Under the pieces are notes generated by a model. The model was not told where the DNA came from and did not search any database. It saw only the letters and a program-made list of their open reading frames with translations. Shown here piece after piece: positions 3,125 through 60,583 of a stretch of DNA of 64,000 nt (within the stretch, counting starts at the first letter, position 1; every line of letters starts with the position of its first letter). This stretch comes from Bacteroidales bacterium UBA1756 (GTDB taxonomy: Bacteria > Bacteroidota > Bacteroidia > Bacteroidales > WCHB1-69), in assembly GCA_002314795.1 (NCBI GenBank), contig DCHI01000007.1, positions 5,827-69,826 on the forward strand, in the 5' to 3' direction. A program made the position numbers and the translations under genes.

Positions 3125-4429
3125 CTATTCGTCAAATAAGGTCTTTTCTTTCATTTGCTTGATGGCATTCGTACAATCTTCTGTTCTTTCAGGAATTATA
3201 GTTTGAATATCGTTAAATAATCTAATAAGTGCTCTTCCTATTGCAAAAGCGAGGTTAACAGGGACTGCATTGCCAATTTGCTTATATTTATCTGCGGTGC
3301 TGCCATAGAATTTCCAGTTATCCGGGAATGTTTGTATCCTTGCATATTCTCTAACAGTTAAGGGTCTTGTCTCTGTCGGATGACAACGCTCAGTTTGTTT
3401 TTGGCAAGGAGAACACGTCAATGTTAAAGAAGGTTCATCCAAAGAAAGTCGACGAGCCATACCAGTTTTTCCGCCCTCTAACTCAAAACTGCCTCCAAGA
3501 TAGTCTTTTGCTATCTCGTATGGAAGATTCCTCCAATCTCCACCCATTGGAACAAGTTCCAATACGTTCTTTTTTTTAGGTGGGTAGGACGCTCCTTCTG
3601 ACACAGGGACATCGCAATCGTAAAGAATTCCCTTGAAGAAAGCATCACGTAAGTGAACTATTTTTTTGTACGGGCTTGGCCAGTGAAATTGAACTTTTTC
3701 AGCAATATCGTTCCTGATAGCAATGAGTATAAGTCGTTCCCTTTTTTGAGGAACTTGATACATTATGGCTTTCAGTACACGCGGCTCAATCAATGTGTAC
3801 CCCAATTCAGATATGGCATTCTTTATGGTTTGTAAAGTTTTACCTCCATTGTGTGAGGTAAGACCTTTGACATTTTCTCCCATAAAGACTTTGGGTTGAA
3901 TTTCCTTGACTGCTCTTGCCAATTCAAAAAATAAAGTACCGCGAGTATCACTGAATCCACCTTGCTTACCAGCATAAGAAAATGCTTGGCAGGGAAATCC
4001 TCCAGAAATAAAATCAATCTTTCCTTTTAAAGGTCTGAAATCAATTTTACGAATGTCTCCTTCGATGACATTCCAATTAGGACGATTCATTCTTAATGTA
4101 TTGCAAGCAGTGTGCATCAATTCATTTAGAAGAACGTGCTTGAATCCTGCTTTTTCCATTCCAATGGCTAATCCTCCAGCACCTGCAAATAACTCAATGG
4201 AAGTGTATTCTCTTTTAGGAACCACCTTCATTTCTTTATCCCAATTTGAATTTGTCATATCTTCTACTCCTGGTATTCCTTGGATGGAGGAAATGTCAAA
4301 TTCCCATTTTCCTTCTTTATTCTTTAGTGCTGCAAATGTTCCATTCACCGCCCATTTTTGTACGGTTGCTTTGGAAACTCCAGCAATATCCGCTAAATCG
4401 CTTTCGCATATTGTGTGATTGACCATCAT
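3125..4429 (-). CDS. DNA (cytosine-5)-methyltransferase with N-terminal HTH extension
   Basis: Motif I ELFAGAGGL, motif IV GGFPCQAFS, motif VI ENVKGL, motif VIII QKRERL, motif X QIGNAVPV. The first ~75 aa carry an HTH-like stretch, SDLADIAGVSKATVQKWAVNG. Confidence 0.93.
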   Translation of the reverse strand: MMVNHTICESDLADIAGVSKATVQKWAVNGTFAALKNKEGKWEFDISSIQGIPGVEDMTNSNWDKEMKVVPKREYTSIELFAGAGGLAIGMEKAGFKHVLLNELMHTACNTLRMNRPNWNVIEGDIRKIDFRPLKGKIDFISGGFPCQAFSYAGKQGGFSDTRGTLFFELARAVKEIQPKVFMGENVKGLTSHNGGKTLQTIKNAISELGYTLIEPRVLKAIMYQVPQKRERLILIAIRNDIAEKVQFHWPSPYKKIVHLRDAFFKGILYDCDVPVSEGASYPPKKKNVLELVPMGGDWRNLPYEIAKDYLGGSFELEGGKTGMARRLSLDEPSLTLTCSPCQKQTERCHPTETRPLTVREYARIQTFPDNWKFYGSTADKYKQIGNAVPVNLAFAIGRALIRLFNDIQTIIPERTEDCTNAIKQMKEKTLFDE

Positions 4430-4441
4430 AGTGCTTTCATA

Positions 4442-5179
4442 TTAAAATTGGTCAAATCCATCGTATGTTTTAAATGCAAGGAGGTATAAACTTTTGAATA
4501 TGTCTGGAGAAAAATTGTTTAATTCATCAAATACAGTACTCATAGTTTTGCTTTTTTCTTTGACTACATCATCTAAAATGTCTGGAAGTTTCTTGCACAA
4601 TTTGCAAAAAGTCTGAGAGTAACCTTCAAAAACTATGTCATAAAATTTATCAATTGAAACTCTCCTAATCCGGTCATTGCTATATTGCTCCTTGTCCAAT
4701 TTTATATTCCATACTTCATTTTGTGATTTTTTTGCAATGACTTCAACAAGCATACAGGTTGCCTGTCCATCGTGCAGAATTTTATCTTGCATTTTCATAT
4801 ACGTTTTCTGCGAAGAAGCAGAGTTCATCGTGTTGTGCTTGTTCTTCATTTCAATGAAAAGGTGTTTGTCGTTGTTGATGACATCAAATCCTTCATTGGG
4901 AACTTCCCAACCGTTTCCCGCATACTTAAATAAATTTTGATGAAAATACCCTATGTGATTGTTATTGCTTTTGTCCATTTGCCGAACACACTCGGCAGTG
5001 ATAATTTCCTTTATGGTTTTGCCGTAAATTTTAGAATCAAAAGTCAATTTTATTGGATCAACAATATTTTTGTTGAAACTTTTTAAATCTAATCCGGTGC
5101 TGTATAATTCTACGGTTTCTGCGACGTGAGTATAGATATTCTCATCGGAAATGAATCCCAAATCATATTTTTGTTTCAT
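4442..5179 (-). CDS. Type II restriction endonuclease (PD-(D/E)xK; possibly Eco47II/Sau96I-like family)
   Basis: 245-aa ORF 12 bp upstream of the C5-MTase on the same strand. Candidate catalytic signature GFDV...LFIEMKNKHNTMNS (D...ExK). The family assignment is from memory of the RE_Eco47II pattern only. Confidence 0.65.
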   Translation of the reverse strand: MKQKYDLGFISDENIYTHVAETVELYSTGLDLKSFNKNIVDPIKLTFDSKIYGKTIKEIITAECVRQMDKSNNNHIGYFHQNLFKYAGNGWEVPNEGFDVINNDKHLFIEMKNKHNTMNSASSQKTYMKMQDKILHDGQATCMLVEVIAKKSQNEVWNIKLDKEQYSNDRIRRVSIDKFYDIVFEGYSQTFCKLCKKLPDILDDVVKEKSKTMSTVFDELNNFSPDIFKSLYLLAFKTYDGFDQF

Positions 5180-5198
5180 ACGTCTGATTTTTAGGTCG

Positions 5199-5206
5199 CA
5201 AAGGTA
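5199..5206 (-). promoter_or_regulatory. Bacteroidetes -7 promoter box (TACCTTTG on minus strand)
   Basis: CAAAGGTA on the plus strand, 20 nt upstream of the REase ATG. Matches TAnnTTTG. Confidence 0.5.
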
Positions 5207-5223
5207 TAATAATTAAATGACTT

Positions 5224-5640
5224 TTAGTCATCCATCTTTTTGAAATTCCCGTTTTTATCAAATTCCAAATCCAACCCGTTGTTCAACTCGACATCGTATT
5301 TCCGTCTGTCTTTGTTTATTTTTACAATGAATTGACCGACAAAGTTTTGATTTACATAATTTTGGATGTTGGCGGGCACGATTCCGTTCGGAACGGCATC
5401 CATTTGACAATCCACATCTTCCCATTCTCCTTTTTTGGTGAAATCAACTTCGTAGCCATTGACGAAATGAACATCGTAAGAGTCGTTATCTTTTGTAATG
5501 TACGAAATATCAATGAGTCCGAAATATTGGTCAATGAATTGCTGTGCGTTTTCGGGAAGGTCTTGGCGTTGAACGTTGGTCTCTTTGGTGCAGGAAACAG
5601 CAAGAATTCCTAAGAAAATTACCAATAAATATTTTTTCAT
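5224..5640 (-). CDS. PepSY-like domain lipoprotein
   Basis: Signal plus Cys (LAVSC). Duplicated PepSY-like pattern: YDVHFVNGYEVDFTKKGEWEDVDC ... YDVELNNGLDLEFDKNGNFKKMD. Confidence 0.7.
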   Translation of the reverse strand: MKKYLLVIFLGILAVSCTKETNVQRQDLPENAQQFIDQYFGLIDISYITKDNDSYDVHFVNGYEVDFTKKGEWEDVDCQMDAVPNGIVPANIQNYVNQNFVGQFIVKINKDRRKYDVELNNGLDLEFDKNGNFKKMDD

Positions 5641-5667
5641 TTTTTTATGATTTTAAAGTGATAAAAA

Positions 5668-6093
5668 TTAGTCATCAATGCGTTTGAACTGTTCGTTTTT
5701 GTCAAATTTAAGTTCCAATCCATTGTTTAATTTGACTTCATAACCGCTTGCGTCACGTTCGATTTTTACCACGGAAGCTTTCGGATTATTTTTCTTGACA
5801 TATTCTTGTACTCCTTTGGGGACGAGAACCGTCGGAACCGCACTTTTTTTGCAATCAATCTCTTTCCAATTGCCTCTTTTGTCAAACTCAATTTCTTGGC
5901 CATTTGTAAATTTAACCTCGAAAGAGTCATTGTCACGGGTGCAGTATGAAATCTCTAATGTCTTGAAATGTTGGTCAATAAGATTATTTGAAACTTCGGG
6001 AAGTTCCTTTTTTTGAATTTGTACCTCTTTCTGACCGAAGGATACTTGCGTTGTCAGTAAAATACCGATTAAAATTAAAAGAGCTTTTTTCAT
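5668..6093 (-). CDS. PepSY-like domain protein (tandem paralogue)
   Basis: Same architecture as 5224..5640: FEVKFTNGQEIEFDKRGNWKEIDC ... YEVKLNNGLELKFDKNEQFKRID. N-terminal signal peptide. Confidence 0.7.
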   Translation of the reverse strand: MKKALLILIGILLTTQVSFGQKEVQIQKKELPEVSNNLIDQHFKTLEISYCTRDNDSFEVKFTNGQEIEFDKRGNWKEIDCKKSAVPTVLVPKGVQEYVKKNNPKASVVKIERDASGYEVKLNNGLELKFDKNEQFKRIDD

Positions 6094-8073: not shown

Positions 8074-9879
8074 TTATCGAGTATTAAGTTCCATCATTCG
8101 TTTTTCGAGATCTGTCCGTTTAACTTCCCGACGCAGATAAAATTCTGTGATAAGAGAAGCAATCGGGGCCGCTACGGAAGCGCCCCACCCACCGTTTTCA
8201 ACCAATACGAAGACCGCAATCTTCGGGGAGTCAACGGGGCCGAAGCAAGCAAAGACGGAGTGGTCTTGACCGTGCGGATTCTGAGCCGTTCCCGTCTTGC
8301 CGGCGATTTCCAGACTGTCAATCTGGGCGAAACGACCTGTTCCAGACGTCATTACCAATTTCATTCCTTCGATAATGGGCTCAAAATAGCGGGGCTCGAT
8401 GCCGCTGTTAATCCGTTGGTTGTATCGGGTGTTGGGATTGTCTTTCGTTCCTATTGCCTTCACTACGTGAGGTTTATAGTAGTAACCGCGGTTGGCGATG
8501 ATGGCAATGAGGTTCGCCATTTGGAGGGGCGTGCACGCCACTTGGCCTTGTCCGATTCCCATTGAAACAATGGAGTTTCCACGCCAGTGTCCGCGGTATT
8601 CGCGGTCCAAGTCTTCCACGGTTGGAATGATTCCTTTGGATTCGTACGGAAGGTCGGTGTCAAACTTCTGGCCAATTCCCATCTGATTGATGTAATCTTT
8701 CCATACTTGATAGCCATCCCGAACCGACTTGTATTTCGGATTGGAAACCGTATTGACGAAAGCGCGGCAGAAGTAGGAATTGCAGGAGCAACGCACCGCA
8801 TCTATCAGGTCGGAACCCGCGTGGCCGTGGCATTTAACAATATGATTTCCAATATTATAACCACCGCCACAACTGTAGTAAGTGTATCGTGTGATGACGC
8901 CCTCTTGCTGCGCGATGAGCCCGTTGGCCAACTTGAACGTGGAGCCGGGCGGATAAATGGCTTTTAGTGCGCGGTTATACAAAGGCACATTGACAGAATC
9001 TTTTAGGAGCTTGCTGTAGTTTTTACTTCTGTTTTTCCCAACCAAAAGATTCGGATCGTAAGTGGGTGTTGAAACAATGCAGAGGATTTCTCCGGTCGAC
9101 GGCTCAATGGCAACGATACTCCCTCTTTTGTTGGCCATCAGTTTTTCGCCGTAACGCTGCAACTGCATATCGATGGTGCACCAGAGGTTGCTTCCCGGAA
9201 TGGCCTTTACATCCAATTCCCCGTTTCGGTAAGAACCTTTTTCGCGGTTGTGGACATCAACCAGAACCATTTTTTTCCCTTTCACGCCGCGCAGTTCCTC
9301 TTCGTAGGACTTCTCAATTCCGCTGATGCCGATGTAGTCGCCCATTTGGTAGTAACTGTCCTCTTTCAACAGGGCATCACTGATTTCCCCGATATAACCG
9401 AGGATATGTGCGGCGATGGGTTCCGGATAGGCACGGAGCGTGCGGGGCTGTACATAAAATCCAGGAAATTTGTAAAGCTTCTCCTGTAAATAACCGTAGT
9501 CCTCTTTTCCCAATTGTTGTGCAAAGATGGAAGGCAGAATGGGAGAGTATGTTCTCGCTTTTTCTAAACGCTCAATCAGGTCTTCTTTGGTGATATCCAA
9601 TATTTTACACAAATCCATCGTGTCGAAATCGGATACTTTTTTGGGAATGACCATCAAATCGTAGGCCGCTTCGTTATAGACTAACAGCGAGTCGTTTCGG
9701 TCGTAGATGAGGCCGCGCGGGGGCTGTTGCACCACTTCACGAATGGCATTGCTGCGTGCGAGGTCTTTGTATTTATTGTCAATGACTTGCATAGAAAAAA
9801 GACGCACCAAGTAAATGCCCACGACGAGAATCATAAGGACAATGATGATGATGCGGCGCTGTTCCTTTAGCGGGTTCAT
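8074..9879 (-). CDS. mrdA: Penicillin-binding protein 2 (transpeptidase)
   Basis: N-terminal TM anchor, SxxK (GSTFK) and KTG (AGKTGTAQ). Adjacent to rodA. Confidence 0.9.
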   Translation of the reverse strand: MNPLKEQRRIIIIVLMILVVGIYLVRLFSMQVIDNKYKDLARSNAIREVVQQPPRGLIYDRNDSLLVYNEAAYDLMVIPKKVSDFDTMDLCKILDITKEDLIERLEKARTYSPILPSIFAQQLGKEDYGYLQEKLYKFPGFYVQPRTLRAYPEPIAAHILGYIGEISDALLKEDSYYQMGDYIGISGIEKSYEEELRGVKGKKMVLVDVHNREKGSYRNGELDVKAIPGSNLWCTIDMQLQRYGEKLMANKRGSIVAIEPSTGEILCIVSTPTYDPNLLVGKNRSKNYSKLLKDSVNVPLYNRALKAIYPPGSTFKLANGLIAQQEGVITRYTYYSCGGGYNIGNHIVKCHGHAGSDLIDAVRCSCNSYFCRAFVNTVSNPKYKSVRDGYQVWKDYINQMGIGQKFDTDLPYESKGIIPTVEDLDREYRGHWRGNSIVSMGIGQGQVACTPLQMANLIAIIANRGYYYKPHVVKAIGTKDNPNTRYNQRINSGIEPRYFEPIIEGMKLVMTSGTGRFAQIDSLEIAGKTGTAQNPHGQDHSVFACFGPVDSPKIAVFVLVENGGWGASVAAPIASLITEFYLRREVKRTDLEKRMMELNTR

Positions 9880-9891
9880 TGACTGAAAAAG

Positions 9892-10854
9892 TTATTTGTT
9901 GCGAGAACTCAATTCGTTGGCCAAAGTGATGAAATCGTTTTTCCCGGTTTCGTTTCCTGCCGAAATCTTGCCGAGCTCCACCAATGCTTTTTGTACGTAA
10001 GCTTCAATTTGAGCTTCTGTTTTGTGCTTAATATCAAGCTTTTCGTAGATGTTGGTGACGGCAAGGAATTTTTCTTTTTCATCAAAATTCGTAGAAGAAA
10101 AGTAATGAAGAAGTTGCTGTTTATCAGTATCTTGTGCATCTTGAAGTGAGCGAAGATACAGGTAGGTTTTCTTGTTTTCACGAATGTCGCCGCCGATGGG
10201 TTTCCCGAAAATGTTGGTGTCACCGTAAACGTCCAAAAGGTCGTCTTTGAGTTGGAAGGCGATCCCGATGTTGATGCCGTACTGGTAAATGGCCTCTTGG
10301 TCGGCGGGTGTTGCCCCCGAAAGGATGGCGCCGGCTTTGAGGCAGCCGGCCAGCATAACCGCTGTCTTGTAACGAATCATCTGGATGAAGTCGTCGATGG
10401 AGACGTTTTCAGACGTTTCGAAGTCAAGGTCTTTTTGCTGGCCTTCGCAAATTTCGACGGAGGTCTGCGACAGGAGGTCAGTGAGGGCGATGATGGTTTC
10501 GGGTTGAGCGGGCGTGTGGAGCATTTCCTGAAGTGCGAGCGTGGCAAGCGCGTCGCCGGATAGAATGGCGATGTTGCTGTTCCAGTGCTTATAGACCGTC
10601 GGTTGGCCACGGCGAATCGGTGCATTGTCCATAATATCGTCGTGAATCAGGGTGAAATTGTGAAGCATTTCAAATGCTGCTGCGGGATGAAGTGCCGCTT
10701 CTTCGTCGCCGCCGAAAAAGCGAGTGGACATCATCACGAGTTTGGGACGGAGCCGCTTTCCGCCTTGCGAAAGAGTGTAGTAGATGGGATTGTACAGATT
10801 TGCGGGCTCTCTATTCAAGGAGATTTTTTTGAAATATTCTTCTAACTTATTCAA
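9892..10854 (-). CDS. Polyprenyl diphosphate synthase (trans-IPPS)
   Basis: Two Asp-rich motifs, LIHDDIMD and QLKDDLLD. 320 aa. Confidence 0.9.
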   Translation of the reverse strand: MNKLEEYFKKISLNREPANLYNPIYYTLSQGGKRLRPKLVMMSTRFFGGDEEAALHPAAAFEMLHNFTLIHDDIMDNAPIRRGQPTVYKHWNSNIAILSGDALATLALQEMLHTPAQPETIIALTDLLSQTSVEICEGQQKDLDFETSENVSIDDFIQMIRYKTAVMLAGCLKAGAILSGATPADQEAIYQYGINIGIAFQLKDDLLDVYGDTNIFGKPIGGDIRENKKTYLYLRSLQDAQDTDKQQLLHYFSSTNFDEKEKFLAVTNIYEKLDIKHKTEAQIEAYVQKALVELGKISAGNETGKNDFITLANELSSRNK

Positions 10855-55861: not shown

Positions 55862-55940
55862 CCCCTGTTTTTTATCCCTTCTAACGCACACAATGACAAT
55901 AGAATACATAAATATTAAACCACTTTTAAAAACAATCCTT

Positions 55941-57716
55941 ATGAAAAAGTTTTCTAAAATTCTGGCAGCACTGCTGACGGTTGTGCTGTGTGCAGGAATC
56001 AACTTTGCTTCCGCACAAGTTATTTTCTCACAAGATTTTTCCAAAATCACCAAAACCGGTTCGCAGCAATGTAGCACTTCATCGTCTGTTATGGACATCC
56101 GTGACAGCTTGCCGGGTTGGGAATCAGAGAGACTCTATCCTGCTGGAGGAAAAGTAAAACTCAGTACCGGTTCCGTCGCTGGTTGGATTAAAACTCCCGC
56201 TATCGATCTCTCCGGTAACAGCGGCAACTTCGTTCTCTCTTTCGATGCCAAAGCTTGGTACGCAGCAAGTGAAAATCAGAAAATTTGGGTCTTCGTTGAT
56301 AACGACTCCACACTCGTAGAAGGCGTAACCATCGGTTCTTCCAACTCCGATTGCAACTTGGTACATTTTTCACTGAATATGACGGGCGGCACCGATTCTT
56401 CCCGTATTATGTTCAAAGGTTTTGCTGCTACTAACAGCCGTTTCTTCTTGGATAACATCGTCATCACCGATGGTACCGAAGTGGCGCTCAACGTATCACC
56501 TTCAGCAGTTTCTATGAACAACGTCATCCTCGGAACGAGCGGCAATGCGACGATCAACGTTTCCGGACGTAACCTCGATGCTACTCTCAGCACCACCGTC
56601 ACCCTCGCCGGTTCCTCCGCATTCACTACCACTTCCACCGCTATTGCTAATGCTGACATTCTTGCAGAAGATGGCGCTGACCTCGTCATTACCTATACTC
56701 CTACTCAAACCGGCAACGATACCGCCGTCGTCACTTTGACCAACAACCAACTTGAAGAACCGGTTACCGTTACAGTTATTGGTCGTTGCATCGCTGCCTC
56801 CCGCGAAATTTCAACCATCGCCGAATTGAGAACCCTTTATGACTGGAGCAACGCTTCTGCCAATACTACGGACACCATCATTTACAAATATGTTGGTCAC
56901 GCCATCATCACCGAAGCTTTCGAAGAGGGTTCCAGCAATGAAAGTTTCAACAAATGGATGCAAGACTCTACCGGCGCTATCCAACTCTATGACCCGTCAC
57001 ACGTTCTGACCAACCTCTCCGTTGGTTGCGAAATCACCAACGTTTTTGGTAAACTTTCCAACTACTACGGCTACCTTGAATTTGAAGCTCAAACCGCTAT
57101 TGCACCTACCGACATCAATGCTTTCCCCACTTGGACGGTAACTCCTTTGGATATCACAACGGCACAGCTCAACGATGTGGAATATATGCACAGCATTCAA
57201 GCACAATTGGTTCGTTTAAGCAATGTTACCTTTGATGCTACCGGCAATTTCCAAAGCTACTATCTTTACACGGTAAACGGTGGTGACACCGCAGTTTGCT
57301 TCACCGCTTCCTGCACACTTCACGGTCTCGGTGCCATTCCTACCGGCGCTACTACCGTTGTTGGTGTCAATGTTTTCACAAAGAGCTACTATGCTGGTTA
57401 TGATGCCGGACGTGTTTCTTATCCAAGATATTACGTTCGTCCGCAATCTGTCGGAGGTTCTATCGGTATTGCTGAAAACGAAATGGCTAACGTCAACGTT
57501 TATCCGAATCCCGCCGAAGGCAATGTTACTCTCTCCGTTGATACCGAAGTTTCACACGTTGCCATTTACAACGTAATGGGTTCACAAGTTGCTTCACAAT
57601 CCATTGCTACCGGCAACAACGTCATCGGAATGGAAAACCTCACTCCTGGTGTTTATTTTCTCCGTATTTTCAACGGCAACCAACTCGTTGGAACGACGAA
57701 AGTCATCCGCAAATAA
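55941..57716 (+). CDS. T9SS C-terminal-domain secreted protein, function unknown
   Basis: ATG 55941 gives the MKKFSKILAALLTVVLCAGINFASAQ signal (the alternative is 55893). C-terminus is VYPNPAEGNVTL...YNVMGSQV...GVYFLRIF...TKVIRK. Confidence 0.7.
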   Translation: MKKFSKILAALLTVVLCAGINFASAQVIFSQDFSKITKTGSQQCSTSSSVMDIRDSLPGWESERLYPAGGKVKLSTGSVAGWIKTPAIDLSGNSGNFVLSFDAKAWYAASENQKIWVFVDNDSTLVEGVTIGSSNSDCNLVHFSLNMTGGTDSSRIMFKGFAATNSRFFLDNIVITDGTEVALNVSPSAVSMNNVILGTSGNATINVSGRNLDATLSTTVTLAGSSAFTTTSTAIANADILAEDGADLVITYTPTQTGNDTAVVTLTNNQLEEPVTVTVIGRCIAASREISTIAELRTLYDWSNASANTTDTIIYKYVGHAIITEAFEEGSSNESFNKWMQDSTGAIQLYDPSHVLTNLSVGCEITNVFGKLSNYYGYLEFEAQTAIAPTDINAFPTWTVTPLDITTAQLNDVEYMHSIQAQLVRLSNVTFDATGNFQSYYLYTVNGGDTAVCFTASCTLHGLGAIPTGATTVVGVNVFTKSYYAGYDAGRVSYPRYYVRPQSVGGSIGIAENEMANVNVYPNPAEGNVTLSVDTEVSHVAIYNVMGSQVASQSIATGNNVIGMENLTPGVYFLRIFNGNQLVGTTKVIRK

Positions 57717-57734
57717 TCGGGATTTTTCCTGTCA

Positions 57735-57768
57735 CAAAAAAAGCGTGCCGATCAGCACGCTTTTTTTG
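57735..57768. terminator. Bidirectional rho-independent terminator
   Basis: A8, stem AGCGTGC / GCACGCT, then T7. Confidence 0.8.
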
Positions 57769-57879
57769 TATCATACAAACTACGCAATAGAACTTTTCAA
57801 ATGAGACCGGAACAGTCAACGGCATCATTTAGCAAAAATAGAGTTGCGCCGGATTCCTTCAATTTTTCGTTTTCTAACA

Positions 57880-57948
57880 AAAATGTGTAAAATCACACGA
57901 AAAGTCGTTCTGAAAATGTGTAAAATCACACGAAAACCGAACGAAAGG
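57880..57948. repeat. Tandem 33-bp repeat (2 copies) with core AAAATGTGTAAAATCACACGAAAA
   Basis: Copy 1 at 57880..57912 and copy 2 at 57913..57948. The first 25 nt are identical. The core contains the inverted repeat TGTG-N7-CACA. Confidence 0.9.
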
Positions 57949-57969
57949 TTTTTTTATATAAAATTATAG

Positions 57970-57977
57970 TATCTTTG
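57970..57977 (+). promoter_or_regulatory. -7 promoter box TATCTTTG
   Basis: 33 nt upstream of ATG 58010. Confidence 0.5.
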
Positions 57978-58009
57978 CCGCCGTTTATGAACCCATAGAT
58001 ATTCGCAAT

Positions 58010-59332
58010 ATGAGTCAGAATATTACAGAACTCAATAGAGATTTTTTGCAGGAACTTGTTGACTGGAAATCCAAGCGTAAGCGCAAACCACTAATTTTGC
58101 AAGGGGCGCGTCAGGTTGGAAAATCCTGGTTGCTAAAAAAATTAGGAGAAACGGCTTTCGACAATTATCTTGTTGTAAATATCGATCGCGATGTGGCTGT
58201 ACGAGAATTATTTGAGCGCACGAAAGATCCTCATCGTTTGGTAGAACAAATTTCTTTAATCAAGGGTCAGCCTATCCGTCCAGAAACGACTTTACTTATT
58301 TTTGACGAAATTCAAGACTCAGACGAAGTCCTCAACTCTTTGAAATATTTCAATGAAGATGCTCCTGAATATGCTGTGGCGTGTGCGGGTTCTTTGCTTG
58401 GGGTGGCAATGAAAAAAAAGGGGCGCTCTTTTCCTGTTGGAATGGTTGATTTCAAATATTTGTACCCGTTGAGTTTTACAGAATTTTTAGACTCCAGCGA
58501 ACCTCGTTTAGCGAACCTCGTGCGCAATTGGGACAAGAATGAGCCGCTTCCTACTATTCTATTGGAAGAACTGTGTGAGAAACTCAAGATTTATATGGTT
58601 GTGGGAGGAATGCCAGAAGCCGTAACCGACTGGATAGAGACTGGAGATATGCACGTAGTAGATGAAACATTAGACAATATTTTGCGTGCCTATCCCATTG
58701 ATTTTTCGAAGTATGCCACACCTACAGAAATGATGCGCATCCAGCAAGTTTGGGATAGTATGCAGCGACAATTAGCAAAAGACAACAAAAAGTTCAAATA
58801 TTCCGATATTCGGCAGGGAGCGCGTGCCCGAGAATACGAAATGGCCGTGGACTGGCTTTGCAGAGCTGGCTTAACACATAAAGTAAACAATACTGAAACT
58901 GCTCGTTTCCCCATTGATTCCTATAAAGACGAATCCATCTTCAAACTATATTTTAATGATATTGGTTTACTGCGAAAGATGTTTCATCTTGATGTTTCGA
59001 CCATTATACAAGAAAACCGATTGTTCACAGAATTCAAAGGAATTATGGCTGAAAACTATGTTGCGCTTTGCTTATTACGACAAGGACACCATCCTCTCTA
59101 CTGGTCTTCTGGAAGCAAGGCGGAAATTGAATTTCTGATTGAATATCAGAATGGAATCATACCCGTTGAGGTGAAATCAAGTGTCAGCATTCAGTCCAAA
59201 AGTTTAAGCGAATATAGGAAAGTAAACAATCCACCGTTATCCATACGATTGTCTATGAAGAATTTGCAATTGCGTGACGGCCTTTTGAACTTACCATTAC
59301 CGCTTGCCGATCGCCTGACAGAATTTCTATAA
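58010..59332 (+). CDS. AAA ATPase, COG1373 type (AAA_14 + DUF4143)
   Basis: Walker A GARQVGKSW and Walker B LLIFDEIQ. C-terminal EIEFLIEY...IPVEVK (restriction-endonuclease-like fold pattern). Confidence 0.82.
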   Translation: MSQNITELNRDFLQELVDWKSKRKRKPLILQGARQVGKSWLLKKLGETAFDNYLVVNIDRDVAVRELFERTKDPHRLVEQISLIKGQPIRPETTLLIFDEIQDSDEVLNSLKYFNEDAPEYAVACAGSLLGVAMKKKGRSFPVGMVDFKYLYPLSFTEFLDSSEPRLANLVRNWDKNEPLPTILLEELCEKLKIYMVVGGMPEAVTDWIETGDMHVVDETLDNILRAYPIDFSKYATPTEMMRIQQVWDSMQRQLAKDNKKFKYSDIRQGARAREYEMAVDWLCRAGLTHKVNNTETARFPIDSYKDESIFKLYFNDIGLLRKMFHLDVSTIIQENRLFTEFKGIMAENYVALCLLRQGHHPLYWSSGSKAEIEFLIEYQNGIIPVEVKSSVSIQSKSLSEYRKVNNPPLSIRLSMKNLQLRDGLLNLPLPLADRLTEFL

Positions 59333-59338
59333 TCGTTT

Positions 59339-59369
59339 ATGTGTAAAATCACACAAAAACCGAACGAAA
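59339..59369. repeat. Third copy of the 31-bp repeat ATGTGTAAAATCACAC(A)AAAACCGAACGAAA
   Basis: 30/31 identical to 57916..57946. Fills the 39-bp gap between the convergent stop codons at 59332 and 59372. Confidence 0.9.
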
Positions 59370-59371
59370 TC

Positions 59372-60535
59372 TTACGCGCCGCACAGAATGTGTAGCACCT
59401 CCATATTCTTTCCGCGTTGTGCCTTGTTGCAGAAATTGCTCAGAAAAACCACGAAAATATCCTCTTGCGGATAATAAAGCATCACGTGGTGAAAGCCACG
59501 CCACAACCCACCGTGATAAACCAACATCCCGTAGGACGGATTCTCTTCCAAATGAAATCCGTAACCGTACAGCTCTTCCGGCAAACGTCCGTTTTTCAGC
59601 ACGTTTTGCGGAAGAATGGCGCGTTCCACCCACTCTTCGGGAAGAATCTTGTAATCATCAAAGAGCGCCTTTTTCCATAAAAAAAGATCATTGACCGTGG
59701 AGTATAATCCTTTGTCGCCAATGGAGCCGTCCAAATAGTAGAGCGGCAGCGGCACTCCGTTAGCGTAATGACCATTGGCAATACTGCATTCGGGATGCTT
59801 CTCCCGTTGCGTTACATAAAACGTACGGGACATACGAGCCGGCACGAAAACGTTGAGCATCATATAATTTTCAAACGGCATTCCGGATACTTTTTCCACG
59901 ATGGATGCTAACAACATATAATTGGTGTTGATATAACTGTATTGCGTTCCCGTTCGGAAAACAAGGGCGGCCTTACGTTTGGCCATCGCCTGAATAACAT
60001 CGTTATTGTCAATTAGTTGCTTTGAATTAGCAAATGTTTTTTCCCCCCAGTTGAAATATTCTGGAAGTCCAGATGTGTGCGTTAAAAGATGGTGAATGGT
60101 GACACCGGAGTAGGGGAGTTCCGGAAAAAACTTGGTAAGCGTGTCGTTCAAAGAGAGTTTTCCCTTGCTCGCCAACTGAAGAATGGCTATTGCCGTGAAC
60201 TGCTTGGAAACGGAAGCCAATTCATAGCAAGTTGTATCCGACAAACGCTGATTGAACTGCTTGCAATTCAGTTTCTTATAACCAAAAGACATCTTTAGTA
60301 CCACCTCCGGACCTTGTGCAATCAGGACGGAACCATTGAGTCGGATGAACATTTCACTGACAAATGCGTCCAGTGCCTGTTTTTTATAAGAGGCATTCAC
60401 CTCATCAAAAAGGATGTTCAACTCATTGGCAGAAAGCGACTTCAGCGGTTTTGTCGGCTTGTTTTTAGGATAAACCGCCGAAAAAGAAAAAAAGGAGATA
60501 CACACCAGCAAGCTGGCGAGAAAAAAACGTCTCAT
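59372..60535 (-). CDS. Serine hydrolase, beta-lactamase (class C / PBP4*-like) family
   Basis: Signal peptide, SxxK (ASVSKQF) and a YxN-type motif (YINTNY). 387 aa. Confidence 0.85.
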   Translation of the reverse strand: MRRFFLASLLVCISFFSFSAVYPKNKPTKPLKSLSANELNILFDEVNASYKKQALDAFVSEMFIRLNGSVLIAQGPEVVLKMSFGYKKLNCKQFNQRLSDTTCYELASVSKQFTAIAILQLASKGKLSLNDTLTKFFPELPYSGVTIHHLLTHTSGLPEYFNWGEKTFANSKQLIDNNDVIQAMAKRKAALVFRTGTQYSYINTNYMLLASIVEKVSGMPFENYMMLNVFVPARMSRTFYVTQREKHPECSIANGHYANGVPLPLYYLDGSIGDKGLYSTVNDLFLWKKALFDDYKILPEEWVERAILPQNVLKNGRLPEELYGYGFHLEENPSYGMLVYHGGLWRGFHHVMLYYPQEDIFVVFLSNFCNKAQRGKNMEVLHILCGA

Positions 60536-60557
60536 ACGGGTTTAGGTTAATGGGCGG

Positions 60558-60565
60558 CAAAGGTA
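60558..60565 (-). promoter_or_regulatory. -7 promoter box (TACCTTTG on minus strand)
   Basis: 23 nt upstream of ATG 60535. Confidence 0.45.
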
Positions 60566-60583
60566 CATAATTTTCATTATATG

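What the first reader, a model, noticed from the sequence alone, without database searches (positions are those of the whole stretch)
57880..59369. COG1373 ATPase gene bracketed by 31-bp direct repeats (possible single-gene cassette)
ATGTGTAAAATCACACGAAAACCGAACGAAA (57916..57946) recurs 30/31 identical at 59339..59369. The second copy sits exactly in the 39-bp gap between the ATPase stop and the convergent hydrolase stop. A further 25-nt partial copy lies in tandem upstream (57880..57904). The repeat contains a small inverted repeat (TGTG-N7-CACA). At 31 bp it is too long for an ordinary target-site duplication. It looks more like attL/attR-type sites or a cassette boundary, yet no recombinase lies between the copies.
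Basis: seen in the sequence. Interest (0 to 1): 0.6.

Follow-up and report, generated by a model that had tools for sequence, protein, structure and literature searches.

The report
Defence-gene operator repeat duplicated downstream
The 31-bp repeat is real, but it is best read as a promoter-linked protein-binding palindrome that precedes a very common, uncharacterised candidate anti-phage ATPase-nuclease gene family, with one extra copy placed just after this gene, not as an integrase att site.

Summary
ATGTGTAAAATCACACGAAAACCGAACGAAA (57916-57946) recurs 30/31 at 59339-59369, inside the 39-bp gap between two convergent stop codons. A 24-nt tandem partial copy lies 33 bp upstream (57880-57903).

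The gene (58010-59332) is an AAA_14+DUF4143 ATPase that matches PADLOC PDC-S01, an abundant candidate defence family for which I found no experimental validation.

The repeat core is a 16-bp palindrome (TGTGT-N6-ACACG). Pairs of it spaced 33 bp lie upstream of all seven related ATPase lineages examined, which sit in unrelated genomic contexts. The proximal site usually starts 53-56 nt before the Bacteroidetes -7 box.

In a sample of 35 distant homologues chosen without reference to the motif, the best upstream repeat has a 32-33-bp period or a multiple of it in 16 loci. The unit sequences differ between subfamilies. None of the 35 has a 3' copy.

3' copies do recur in a few lineages. One sister lineage has a 73-nt bracketing repeat, and ATPase-less relatives carry a lone pair in the same slot. 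That lone pair is inverted, one flank is not syntenic, the breakpoints of truncated modules vary, no recombinase is nearby, and identical genes occur in only one context.

Verdict: these are operator/iteron-like control repeats plus a local 3' duplicate. The cassette/att reading is only partly supported.

The parts
55893..57716 (+). Left neighbour: T9SS-secreted cargo gene (Por_Secre_tail).
   Evidence: Pfam.
57734..57769 (.). Perfect hairpin with A/T runs on both sides. It is a bidirectional terminator-like element ending the cargo gene and marks the left limit of the ATPase module.
   Evidence: Inverted repeat I6, 18-nt arms, 94% complementary. Only spurious sRNA-type Rfam hits fall on it.
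57880..57903 (+). Distal repeat unit AAAATGTGTAAAATCACACGAAAA. The 16-bp palindrome TGTGTAAAATCACACG is at 57884-57899.
   Evidence: 24 nt identical to 57913-57936, offset 33 bp. Aligns with the distal motif of L006, L007 and L085.
57913..57946 (+). Proximal repeat unit. It contains the reported 31-mer (57916-57946) and the palindrome at 57917-57932, whose centre lies 45.5 nt before the -7 box.
   Evidence: The same geometry is seen in seven of eight lineages.
57970..57977 (+). Bacteroidetes-type -7 promoter box TATCTTTG, 33 nt before the ATG.
   Evidence: Read from the sequence. The same TAnnTTTG box is at the equivalent place in L006, L049, L081, L085, L089 and L117. The promoter consensus comes from established knowledge and PMC7366714. 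The transcription start site is inferred, not mapped.
58010..59332 (+). 440-aa ATPase gene: AAA+ domain, winged-helix-like module (~238-315) and C-terminal PD-(D/E)XK-type fold. Matches the PADLOC candidate defence family PDC-S01.
   Evidence: Pfam AAA_14 2.5e-23 and DUF4143 4.6e-32. PADLOC PDC-S01 8.9e-163. Invariant G37-K38, D99-E100, E372, E387, K389 in 34 homologues. AF2 model pLDDT 88.8. Foldseek matches 2qen, ORC/Cdc6 and STAND NTPases.
59339..59369 (+). 3' copy of the proximal unit (30/31), palindrome at 59340-59355. It fills the gap between the convergent stop codons.
   Evidence: It is not a significant hairpin or terminator (z -0.5).
59372..60535 (-). Right neighbour: convergent beta-lactamase-family serine hydrolase. 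Its stop codon is 2 nt from the 3' copy.
   Evidence: Pfam. The region past its stop codon is variable in 72%-identical orthologues.

Best explanation
The 31-mer is one unit of a family-wide cis element of PDC-S01-type ATPase-nuclease genes.

The element is a short palindrome (here TGTGT-N6-ACACG, flanked by A-tracts phased about 11 bp apart). It is present as two copies 33 bp apart (three helical turns, so on the same DNA face) just upstream of the gene's promoter.

The most likely mechanism is binding of a dimeric DNA-binding protein to both sites to control transcription of the ATPase gene. This step is inferred.

The unit sequence changes between ATPase subfamilies while the 33-bp phasing stays. 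The most economical binder is therefore the ATPase's own winged-helix module, acting as an autoregulator in the manner of iterons and their initiators. This is also inferred, and a separate trans-acting regulator is the alternative.

The third copy, 6 nt after the stop codon, is a recent local duplicate of the promoter-proximal unit plus its 14-nt tail. It was probably produced by duplication/deletion or short-tract recombination between units, the same turnover that leaves orphan, truncated or tandem modules in other genomes. It is not the product of integrase-mediated insertion.

Whether the 3' copy is still bound is open. If it is, it could act as an auxiliary operator or as a roadblock between the two convergent genes, which have no terminator between them.
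For: - Same architecture in three genomes: motif, 33 bp, motif, about 40-55 bp, TAnnTTTG box. The ATPases are only 48% identical, and one case precedes an unrelated gene.
- All five homologue lineages fetched by protein look-up alone carry the pair 80-130 nt before the ATG. The proximal motif starts 53-56 nt before the -7 box in seven of eight lineages.
- Of 72 metagenome loci holding the 19-mer, 30 have a partner at +/-32-33 nt. In 14 the motif lies directly 5' of an intact ATPase: 10 AAA_14-DUF4143 and 4 AAA-ATPase_like/PDDEXK_9.
- Unbiased sample of 35 distant homologues: the best upstream direct repeat has a period of 32-33 bp in 12 loci and 65/66/99 bp in 4 more. In control 3' flanks, 0 of 34 have that period. 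Units differ by subfamily.
- A second PDC-S01 gene in L020 carries a different 33-bp-phased repeat.
- The unit is absent from the 3' flank in 0 of 35 unbiased loci.
- The protein model has a helix-helix-beta-hairpin module and ORC/Cdc6-like fold matches.
- Tandem and partially duplicated modules exist (L012, L051, L010). Truncated modules break at heterogeneous points.
Against: - No binding protein was identified, and no transcription start site was mapped.
- In the human-gut L012 class the only TAnnTTTG box lies upstream of the pair, so the geometry relative to the promoter is not universal.
- Two different ATPase families share the same pair in one genome. This fits a shared trans-acting regulator better than strict autoregulation.
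- 3' copies recur independently (window; L026/32/34/35/49; L037/63; L051). Each time they cover the motif region but not the promoter, which hints at a function or a recombination role for the 3' copy.
- The 30/31 identity and sharp edges of the window's copy are also what a single-crossover insertion would give.
Confidence: 0.55

Rival explanations
1. Cassette or att-site reading, as proposed by the first reader. On this view the motif-bearing repeats are crossover sites. A circle carrying one repeat plus promoter plus ATPase integrates at a resident copy, either through a trans-acting recombinase or through homologous recombination, and this leaves the gene bracketed. Excision leaves a solo copy.
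For: - The window's 31-bp repeats have sharp edges.
- A sister lineage has a 73-nt 5'/3' repeat whose 3' copy starts 3-6 nt after the stop.
- ATPase-less relatives with the same right flank carry exactly one pair in the slot, and homology to the filled locus starts inside the pair.
- The same slot holds PDC-S02 in another relative.
- Arrays of the form pair-gene-pair-gene-pair exist.
- The number of units varies by one 33-bp step.
Against: - No integrase or transposase is in or near any locus.
- The solo pair is inverted relative to the bracketing pairs, and the left flank is unrelated ordinary chromosome.
- Most relatives lack any 3' copy.
- Identical proteins occur in one context only: 5 contigs for the window's protein and 23 for P0026.
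- Truncated modules break at different positions.
- The motif has a fixed geometry to the promoter.
- The motif is absent from plasmids and phage genomes, and a related 19-mer gave one isolated hit in viral contigs.
Confidence: 0.2
2. The 3' copy is a selected, functional second binding site. On this view the same protein binds 5' and 3' of the gene. It either loops the 1.4-kb module or blocks transcription running in from the convergent hydrolase gene, replacing a terminator in the 39-bp gap.
For: - There is no intrinsic terminator in the gap.
- Orphan 3' copies were seen only where the downstream gene is convergent: 3-4 of 9 such loci against 0 of 6 co-directional ones.
- In three lineages the 3' copies cover the motif but not the promoter.
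Against: - The orientation association is not statistically significant, and many convergent cases lack a 3' copy.
- None of the 35 unbiased loci has a 3' copy.
- In the sister lineage the 3' palindrome can itself fold as a strong hairpin, which is a different mechanism.
- Near-identity that includes the non-conserved 14-nt tail points to recent copying, not to long-term selection.
Confidence: 0.15
3. The repeats act at the RNA level, as a 5' leader or 3' stabiliser/terminator hairpin, and not as DNA sites.
For: - In the L012 class the pair lies between the only recognisable -7 box and the ATG, so it would be transcribed.
- The upstream pair region folds slightly better than shuffles (z -2.0).
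Against: - In the window's subfamily the pair lies upstream of the -7 box.
- The stems are only 4-5 bp. The 3' copy has z -0.5 on either strand.
- There is no Rfam match.
- The motif works in either orientation, and the 33-bp helical phasing is a feature of DNA, not RNA.
Confidence: 0.04
4. The repeats are a chance similarity or an assembly artefact.
For: None.
Against: - No such match is expected in shuffles.
- The same three copies are present in independent assemblies from three different samples.
Confidence: 0.01

Closest known systems
Iterons and archaeal ORB boxes next to the gene of their AAA+/winged-helix binder (plasmid Rep proteins; Orc1/Cdc6)
   Same: - Short repeats phased by whole helical turns sit directly upstream of the gene for a protein with a winged-helix module.
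- The repeat sequence diverges together with the protein subfamily.
- The predicted fold matches ORC/Cdc6 and the P. abyssi Walker ATPase 2qen.
   Different: - The genes are chromosomal and multi-copy, and the protein carries a PD-(D/E)XK nuclease fold.
- Nothing suggests replication.
- The period is 33 bp, whereas classical iterons are spaced about 22 bp (from my own knowledge).
- Binding was not tested.
CRP/FNR-type operator palindromes (E. coli CRP consensus TGTGA-N6-TCACA; class I sites near -61.5 and -92.5)
   Same: - It is a 16-bp palindrome with GTG-N8-CAC spacing.
- The inferred centres lie near -58 and -91 relative to a start site deduced from the -7 box, on the same helical face.
   Different: - The half-site is TGTGT, the centre is A/T-rich and flanked by A-tracts, and the sites come as obligate 33-bp pairs.
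- Unit sequences differ between subfamilies, which a single global regulator would not explain.
- No Crp-family regulator was identified.
- The resemblance rests on the consensus as I know it. It was not tested here.
attL/attR of integrative elements, and integron attC gene cassettes
   Same: - An accessory single ORF is flanked by direct repeats that contain an imperfect palindrome.
- A solo copy sits in the equivalent slot of relatives.
- Array-like arrangements occur.
   Different: - There is no integrase.
- The gene has its own promoter.
- The repeat is conserved across unrelated insertion sites and tied to the promoter.
- Most family members have no 3' copy, and breakpoints are heterogeneous.
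PADLOC PDC-S01 (single-gene phage defence candidate; COG1373, AAA_14+DUF4143)
   Same: The gene itself is a clear member (E 8.9e-163) with intact Walker A, Walker B and E...ExK motifs.
   Different: - I found no published description of cis elements for this family. A search for papers holding both AAA_14 and DUF4143 found none, DUF4143 with Bacteroides gave only the PD-(D/E)XK catalogue, and the two PDC-S01 papers I read did not mention any.
- Anti-phage activity of the family is reported as not yet validated.
REP/BIME palindromes flanking RAYT genes (REPtrons)
   Same: Short extragenic palindromes flank the gene of a nuclease-type protein, and orphan copies are found elsewhere.
   Different: - There is no HUH transposase.
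- The copy number is very low: three in 64 kb, all at this gene.
- The repeats lie mainly 5' of the gene and in fixed register with the promoter.

Membership tests
PDC-S01 / COG1373 ATPase-nuclease (the gene) | Match to the family HMMs and the AAA_14 + DUF4143 architecture | tested here: met
   PADLOC PDLC04786 E 8.9e-163 over residues 8-437. Pfam AAA_14 and DUF4143 both score above their cut-offs.
PDC-S01 / COG1373 ATPase-nuclease (the gene) | Intact Walker A/B and PD-(D/E)XK catalytic residues | tested here: met
   G37-K38, D99-E100, E372, E387 and K389 are invariant in 34 homologues. DUF4143 is catalogued as PD-(D/E)XK in PMC3424549.
PDC-S01 / COG1373 ATPase-nuclease (the gene) | Protection against phage | not testable with these tools
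attL/attR of a site-specific integrative element | Direct repeats at both ends of the inserted segment | tested here: met
   31 nt, 30/31 identical, with sharp edges.
attL/attR of a site-specific integrative element | Tyrosine or serine recombinase encoded in or next to the element | tested here: not met
   The only ORF inside is the ATPase. The neighbours are a T9SS cargo protein, a hydrolase, an S8 peptidase, a NUDIX protein and a SpoIIE-type phosphatase. No recombinase is present in the related loci either.
attL/attR of a site-specific integrative element | Empty site with one repeat copy joining the same two flanks in a related genome | tested here: inconclusive
   Window: the closest hydrolase orthologues (72% identical) are not syntenic. 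Sister lineage: one pair sits in the same slot with a collinear right flank, but it is inverted and the left flank is unrelated.
attL/attR of a site-specific integrative element | The same element is found at different sites with the same ends | tested here: not met
   Identical proteins occur in one context only. The nearest other homologue is 78% identical.
Integron gene cassette | Promoterless ORF followed by an attC site, next to intI/attI | tested here: not met
   The gene has its own TAnnTTTG promoter. No intI is present. The repeat is mainly 5' of the gene.
Transposon target-site duplication | Short duplication flanking terminal inverted repeats and a transposase | tested here: not met
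   The repeat is 31 nt. No terminal inverted repeats were found inside the copies, and there is no transposase.
Operator/iteron-type protein-binding repeats | Dyad symmetry, helical phasing, fixed register to the promoter, and conservation above that of the flanks | tested here: met
   The core is a 16-bp palindrome. The period is 33 bp in the window and 32-33 bp or a multiple of it in 16 of 35 unbiased loci, against 0 of 34 controls. The proximal site starts 53-56 nt before the -7 box in seven of eight lineages. The motif is near-identical between ATPases that are only 48% identical.
Operator/iteron-type protein-binding repeats | Demonstrated binding by a cognate protein and an effect on transcription | not testable with these tools
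   A winged-helix-like module is predicted in the ATPase. This is an inference only.
Intrinsic terminator (for the 3' copy) | Stable GC-rich hairpin followed by a U run | tested here: not met
   No terminator-like site falls in 59333-59371. The fold z-scores are -0.5 and -0.4.
Known Rfam RNA family | Covariance-model match | tested here: not met
   No match at the repeats even at E up to 10. No match at gathering score anywhere in the window.
Bacteroidetes LexA-like SOS box | GGA-N5-TCC or CTAA-N5-TTAG palindrome | tested here: not met
   The motifs reported in PMC8565304 differ from TGTGT-N6-ACAC.

The most novel reading that the evidence does not exclude
The ATPase-winged-helix-nuclease encoded here recognises its own subfamily-specific, 33-bp-phased palindromes. 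These sites would then do more than regulate. They would mark the ends of the single-gene module and act as preferred recombination points, so that PDC-S01 and related ATPase-nuclease genes are swapped, duplicated, inverted or lost at defence hotspots without a dedicated integrase. This would be an iteron-bounded, self-recognising defence cassette.
Probability: 0.12. Interest if true: 0.8.

Novelty: new variant of a known kind. Interest (0 to 1): 0.45.

Why it matters
PDC-S01 is reported as one of the most frequent candidate defence genes in prokaryotes and as the most frequent single locus in rumen genomes. Neither paper I read reports its mechanism or regulation.

A conserved upstream pair of repeats, phased at 33 bp and specific to each subfamily, gives a concrete handle on the family. 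It predicts sequence-specific DNA binding, possibly by the protein's own winged-helix module. It also supplies ready-made probes for footprinting, reporter assays and ChIP.

The occasional 3' and orphan copies, and the slot that holds PDC-S01, PDC-S02 or only a repeat pair, show how fast these single-gene modules turn over.

For the original question the practical message is more modest. Direct repeats bracketing a gene need not be att sites. Here they are copies of the gene's own control element.

Tried and rejected
- **Generic intergenic repeat:** rejected. There were 3 single hits in the species-genome collection, and a related 19-mer gave one isolated hit in viral contigs. A blastn of the 141-bp upstream region found nothing in plasmids or phage genomes.
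- **Empty site for the window's own locus:** not obtainable. Contigs with identical proteins all have the same arrangement, and 72%-identical hydrolase orthologues are no longer syntenic.
- **FopS sRNA family link** (recalled from memory): rejected after reading PMC11697453.
- **Bacteroidetes LexA-like SOS box:** rejected, because the motifs differ.
- **'PM2' near-palindromic promoter of B. thetaiotaomicron:** could not be tested, because its sequence is not in the text.
- **Rfam families, tRNA or tmRNA as an integration target:** none found.
- **Intrinsic terminator or RNA hairpin role for the 3' copy:** not supported.
- **Degenerate 3' remnant in L085 related to the 31-mer's tail:** the similarity is not significant, since 20 of 500 shuffles score as well.
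- **Link between 3' copies and a convergent neighbour:** suggestive, but the numbers are too small.
- **L010 as another bracketed case:** it is a 1,066-bp, 98%-identical partial tandem duplication of a whole module.
- **Naming the organism:** cluster look-up returned no names.
- **Related solved structure by sequence:** none.
- **My own error:** my first partner-motif count had an off-by-one error. It was redone.
Full report
**1. Observation**

The region was read directly.
- The 31-mer ATGTGTAAAATCACACGAAAACCGAACGAAA lies at 57916-57946 and recurs at 59339-59369 with one change (G57932/A59355). No such match is expected by chance.
- Identity ends abruptly on both sides.
- The second copy occupies the 39-nt gap between the ATPase stop codon (TAA, 59330-59332) and the stop codon of the convergent hydrolase (59372-59374). 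The gap is 6 nt + the 31-mer + 2 nt.
- A tandem partial copy lies 33 bp upstream. It shares 24 identical nt (57880-57903 = 57913-57936).
- The 15-nt core occurs only at these three places in the 64-kb window. So do all sites of the form yGTGT-N6-ACACr with an AT-rich centre; 0.025 are expected.
- A-tracts recur about every 11 bp from 57879 to 57944.

Two details need correcting: the dyad is TGTG-N6-CACA, not N7, and the partial copy is 24 identical nt.

**2. The gene and its surroundings**

- The only ORF between the copies (58010-59332) has AAA_14 and DUF4143 domains. It matches the PADLOC single-gene candidate PDC-S01 at E 8.9e-163.
- DUF4143 is catalogued as a PD-(D/E)XK fold (PMC3424549).
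- In an alignment of 34 homologues, the Walker A lysine, the Walker B DE and an E...ExK triad (E372, E387, K389) are invariant.
- An AlphaFold model (pLDDT 88.8) shows three parts: an AAA+ domain, a helix-helix-beta-hairpin module at about 238-315, and a C-terminal alpha/beta domain.
- Its best structural matches are the P. abyssi Walker ATPase 2qen, ORC/Cdc6/Orc1 proteins and STAND NTPases. No solved structure is related by sequence.
- The literature describes PDC-S01 as very abundant. [quoted passage not shown]
- The neighbours are a T9SS cargo gene ending in a strong bidirectional hairpin (57734-57769) and a convergent beta-lactamase-family hydrolase. No recombinase is nearby.
- A Bacteroidetes -7 box (TATCTTTG, 57970-57977) lies between the repeats and the ATG.

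**3. How common the repeat is and what it flanks**

A 21-nt pattern covering all three copies hits only three of about 186,000 species genomes, once each.
- In a Paludibacteraceae MAG, the motif is one of a tandem pair upstream of a 48%-identical ATPase. The promoter layout is the same and there is no 3' copy.
- In a Prevotella MAG, an inverted pair precedes unrelated small genes next to a VapE-like gene.

A 19-nt pattern finds 72 metagenome loci.
- 30 loci have a partner motif at +/-32-33 nt.
- In 14 loci the motif lies directly 5' of an intact ATPase gene. Ten of these genes are AAA_14-DUF4143 type and four are AAA-ATPase_like/PDDEXK_9 type.
- In 6 loci the pair lies just 3' of an ATPase with no gene following.
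- 12 loci are one isolated copy inside a single coding sequence, which is the chance type.

A related 19-mer gave one isolated hit in viral contigs. A blastn of the 141-bp upstream region found nothing in phage genomes or plasmids.

**4. Close homologues**

Proteins 68-76% identical to the window's ATPase were fetched by protein identity alone. They sit in entirely different neighbourhoods.
- Each carries the motif pair 80-130 nt before its ATG. The second site is often embedded in a longer palindrome, GTGCCAAAAAyGTG...CACATTTTTGGCAC.
- The proximal site starts 53-56 nt before the -7 box in seven of eight lineages.
- If the start site is taken to lie a few nt after the box, the two centres fall near -58 and -91. 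This is an inference.

**5. Unbiased family sample**

I scanned viral contigs with the protein alignment and obtained 70 loci with 22-45% identical homologues. I analysed 35 non-redundant ones.
- The best direct repeat in the 300 nt upstream has a period of 32-33 bp in 12 loci.
- In 4 more loci the period is 65/66/99 bp, a multiple of 33. Further loci show weaker repeats at the same period.
- In control 3' flanks, only 4 of 34 show any comparable repeat, and none has that period.
- The unit sequences differ between subfamilies, although many share an AAAA-GTGT-AAAA-like core.
- A second PDC-S01 gene on locus L020 carries yet another 33-35-bp-phased unit.
- None of the 35 loci has its unit in the 3' flank.

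The 5' phased pair is therefore a feature of the whole family. A 3' copy is exceptional.

**6. Where 3' copies do occur**

- **Sister lineage.** In L026/L032/L034/L035/L049 the ATPase is 70% identical to the window's and the context is different. The gene is bracketed by a 73-nt direct repeat of its own motif pair at about 88% identity. The 3' copy starts 3-6 nt after the stop and excludes the promoter. L049 has one unit fewer, a 33-bp step.
- **L012.** The downstream copy is simply the control region of a second ATPase gene in tandem.
- **L051, L037 and L063.** A pair, or a truncated pair, follows the last ATPase gene with no gene after it.
- **L010.** A 1,066-bp, 98%-identical partial tandem duplication of a whole module.

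Truncated modules in human-gut contigs break off at different points: after the second motif, just before the ATG, about 8 codons into the gene, or inside the second motif.

**7. Empty-site tests**

- **The window's own locus.** The nearest hydrolase orthologues (72% identical) have different neighbours on both sides, so no empty site could be obtained. The segment just past the hydrolase stop codon is variable among them, and none of these loci contains a motif-like site.
- **The sister lineage.** Relatives with an 85%-identical S1/P1 nuclease and the same genes to its right have no ATPase. They have exactly one motif pair in the slot. Another relative has a PDC-S02/DUF1016 gene there and no motif.
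- **Limits of that comparison.** Homology between filled and unfilled loci begins inside the pair. However, the solo pair is inverted relative to the bracketing pairs, and the left flank of the filled loci is unrelated ordinary chromosome: M6 peptidase, DUF2461 and sulfatase.

The slot behaves as a defence-gene hotspot and a synteny breakpoint. It is not a clean attB.

**8. Interpretation**

The shown facts fit a control element best. These facts are dyad symmetry, whole-turn phasing, a fixed register to the promoter, conservation well above that of the protein, presence 5' of nearly all relatives, and subfamily-specific sequence. I read the element as operator- or iteron-like repeats bound by a dimeric protein.

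The sequence diverges by subfamily while the 33-bp phasing is kept, and the protein has a winged-helix-like module with ORC/Cdc6-like fold matches. For these reasons I infer that the ATPase itself is the most likely binder. A shared trans-acting regulator remains possible and would better explain two ATPase families sharing one pair.

The window's 3' copy is most simply a recent local duplicate of the proximal unit and its tail. It fits the duplication, deletion and recombination turnover seen elsewhere. Whether it is bound is open. If it is, it could act as a roadblock or looping site between two convergent genes that have no terminator between them.

The att/cassette reading keeps some support: the sharp edges, the recurrence of bracketing and the solo pair. 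It fails on the recombinase, on evidence of mobility, on the rarity of 3' copies and on the heterogeneity of breakpoints.

**9. Comparison with known systems, and novelty**

- The gene is a clear PDC-S01 member.
- The repeats work most like iterons or ORB boxes, or like CRP-type operators. Membership in any named operator family cannot be claimed without the binder.
- They are not attL/attR sites, attC sites, a target-site duplication, a terminator, an Rfam RNA or a Bacteroidetes SOS box.
- I found no description of cis elements for this family in the searchable literature.

I rate this a new variant of a known kind and of moderate interest. The bracketing itself is probably a by-product. The family-wide phased repeats are a useful and apparently undescribed handle on a very common, uncharacterised defence candidate.

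Noticed in passing
L104-L109 (about 3743-3901 in L104), L110 5774-7274, L034 6005-7600: The slot beside a conserved S1/P1 nuclease gene holds a PDC-S01 gene in L034, a PDC-S02/DUF1016 gene in L110, or only an orphan motif pair in L104-L109. This looks like a defence-gene hotspot that is also a synteny breakpoint.
   Followed up: partly
L020 about 3400-3800 (minus strand): A second, distant PDC-S01 gene on the same contig has a different upstream repeat, CTTGGAAAAACGGACAAAA. It occurs 2-3 times with a period of about 33-35 bp around a TAttTTTG box.
   Followed up: partly
L010 4308-5371 and 7851-8916: A 1,066-bp direct duplication at 98% identity (period 3,543 bp). It is a partial tandem duplication of a module made of a 42-bp palindrome, a 185-aa ORF and a PDC-S01 gene.
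   Followed up: partly
L009, L025, L029, L038, L042, L054, L057, L071, L073 (for example L025 about 1410): Many human-gut contigs have the L012-type ATPase control region or 5' end interrupted, at two different positions, by the same sequence starting GTAAATATTTATATCCATAATTAGC. It is probably the end of an insertion element.
   Followed up: no
L012 1-1600 and L051 380-2600: An AAA_14-DUF4143 gene and an AAA-ATPase_like/PDDEXK_9 gene lie in tandem. Each is preceded by a nearly identical control region of about 110 nt. In this class the only TAnnTTTG box is upstream of the motif pair, not downstream of it.
   Followed up: partly
window 57958-57987 and 60548-60577: The ATPase and hydrolase promoters share a 30-nt similarity in inverted orientation around TAnnTTTGCCGCC. 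This is probably just two strong Bacteroidetes-type promoters.
   Followed up: no
window 57734-57769: A perfect 18-bp-arm hairpin flanked by A and T runs lies after the T9SS cargo gene. It looks like a bidirectional terminator, and it draws weak, spurious sRNA/miRNA Rfam hits.
   Followed up: partly
L093-L096 about 8211-9964 versus L101 about 3349: In 72%-identical orthologues of the window's hydrolase, the gene's 3' side either abuts a TPR gene directly or holds about 2 kb with an Rpn-like (HTH_Rpn_C) gene and an ORF6N gene. This is another variable slot.
   Followed up: no
L022 about 4870-5771: A single motif copy lies about 300 nt upstream of an RloB/AbiLii-like gene. The motif may therefore also occur near other defence-type genes.
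   Followed up: no
L016, L037, L063, L065 (for example after L037's pair): Orphan motif pairs are followed by short hairpin repeats of the type GCTGGATTTGCAATCCAGC / GCGGATTTGCAATCCGC. This looks like a separate family of small palindromic repeats in human-gut Bacteroidales.
   Followed up: no
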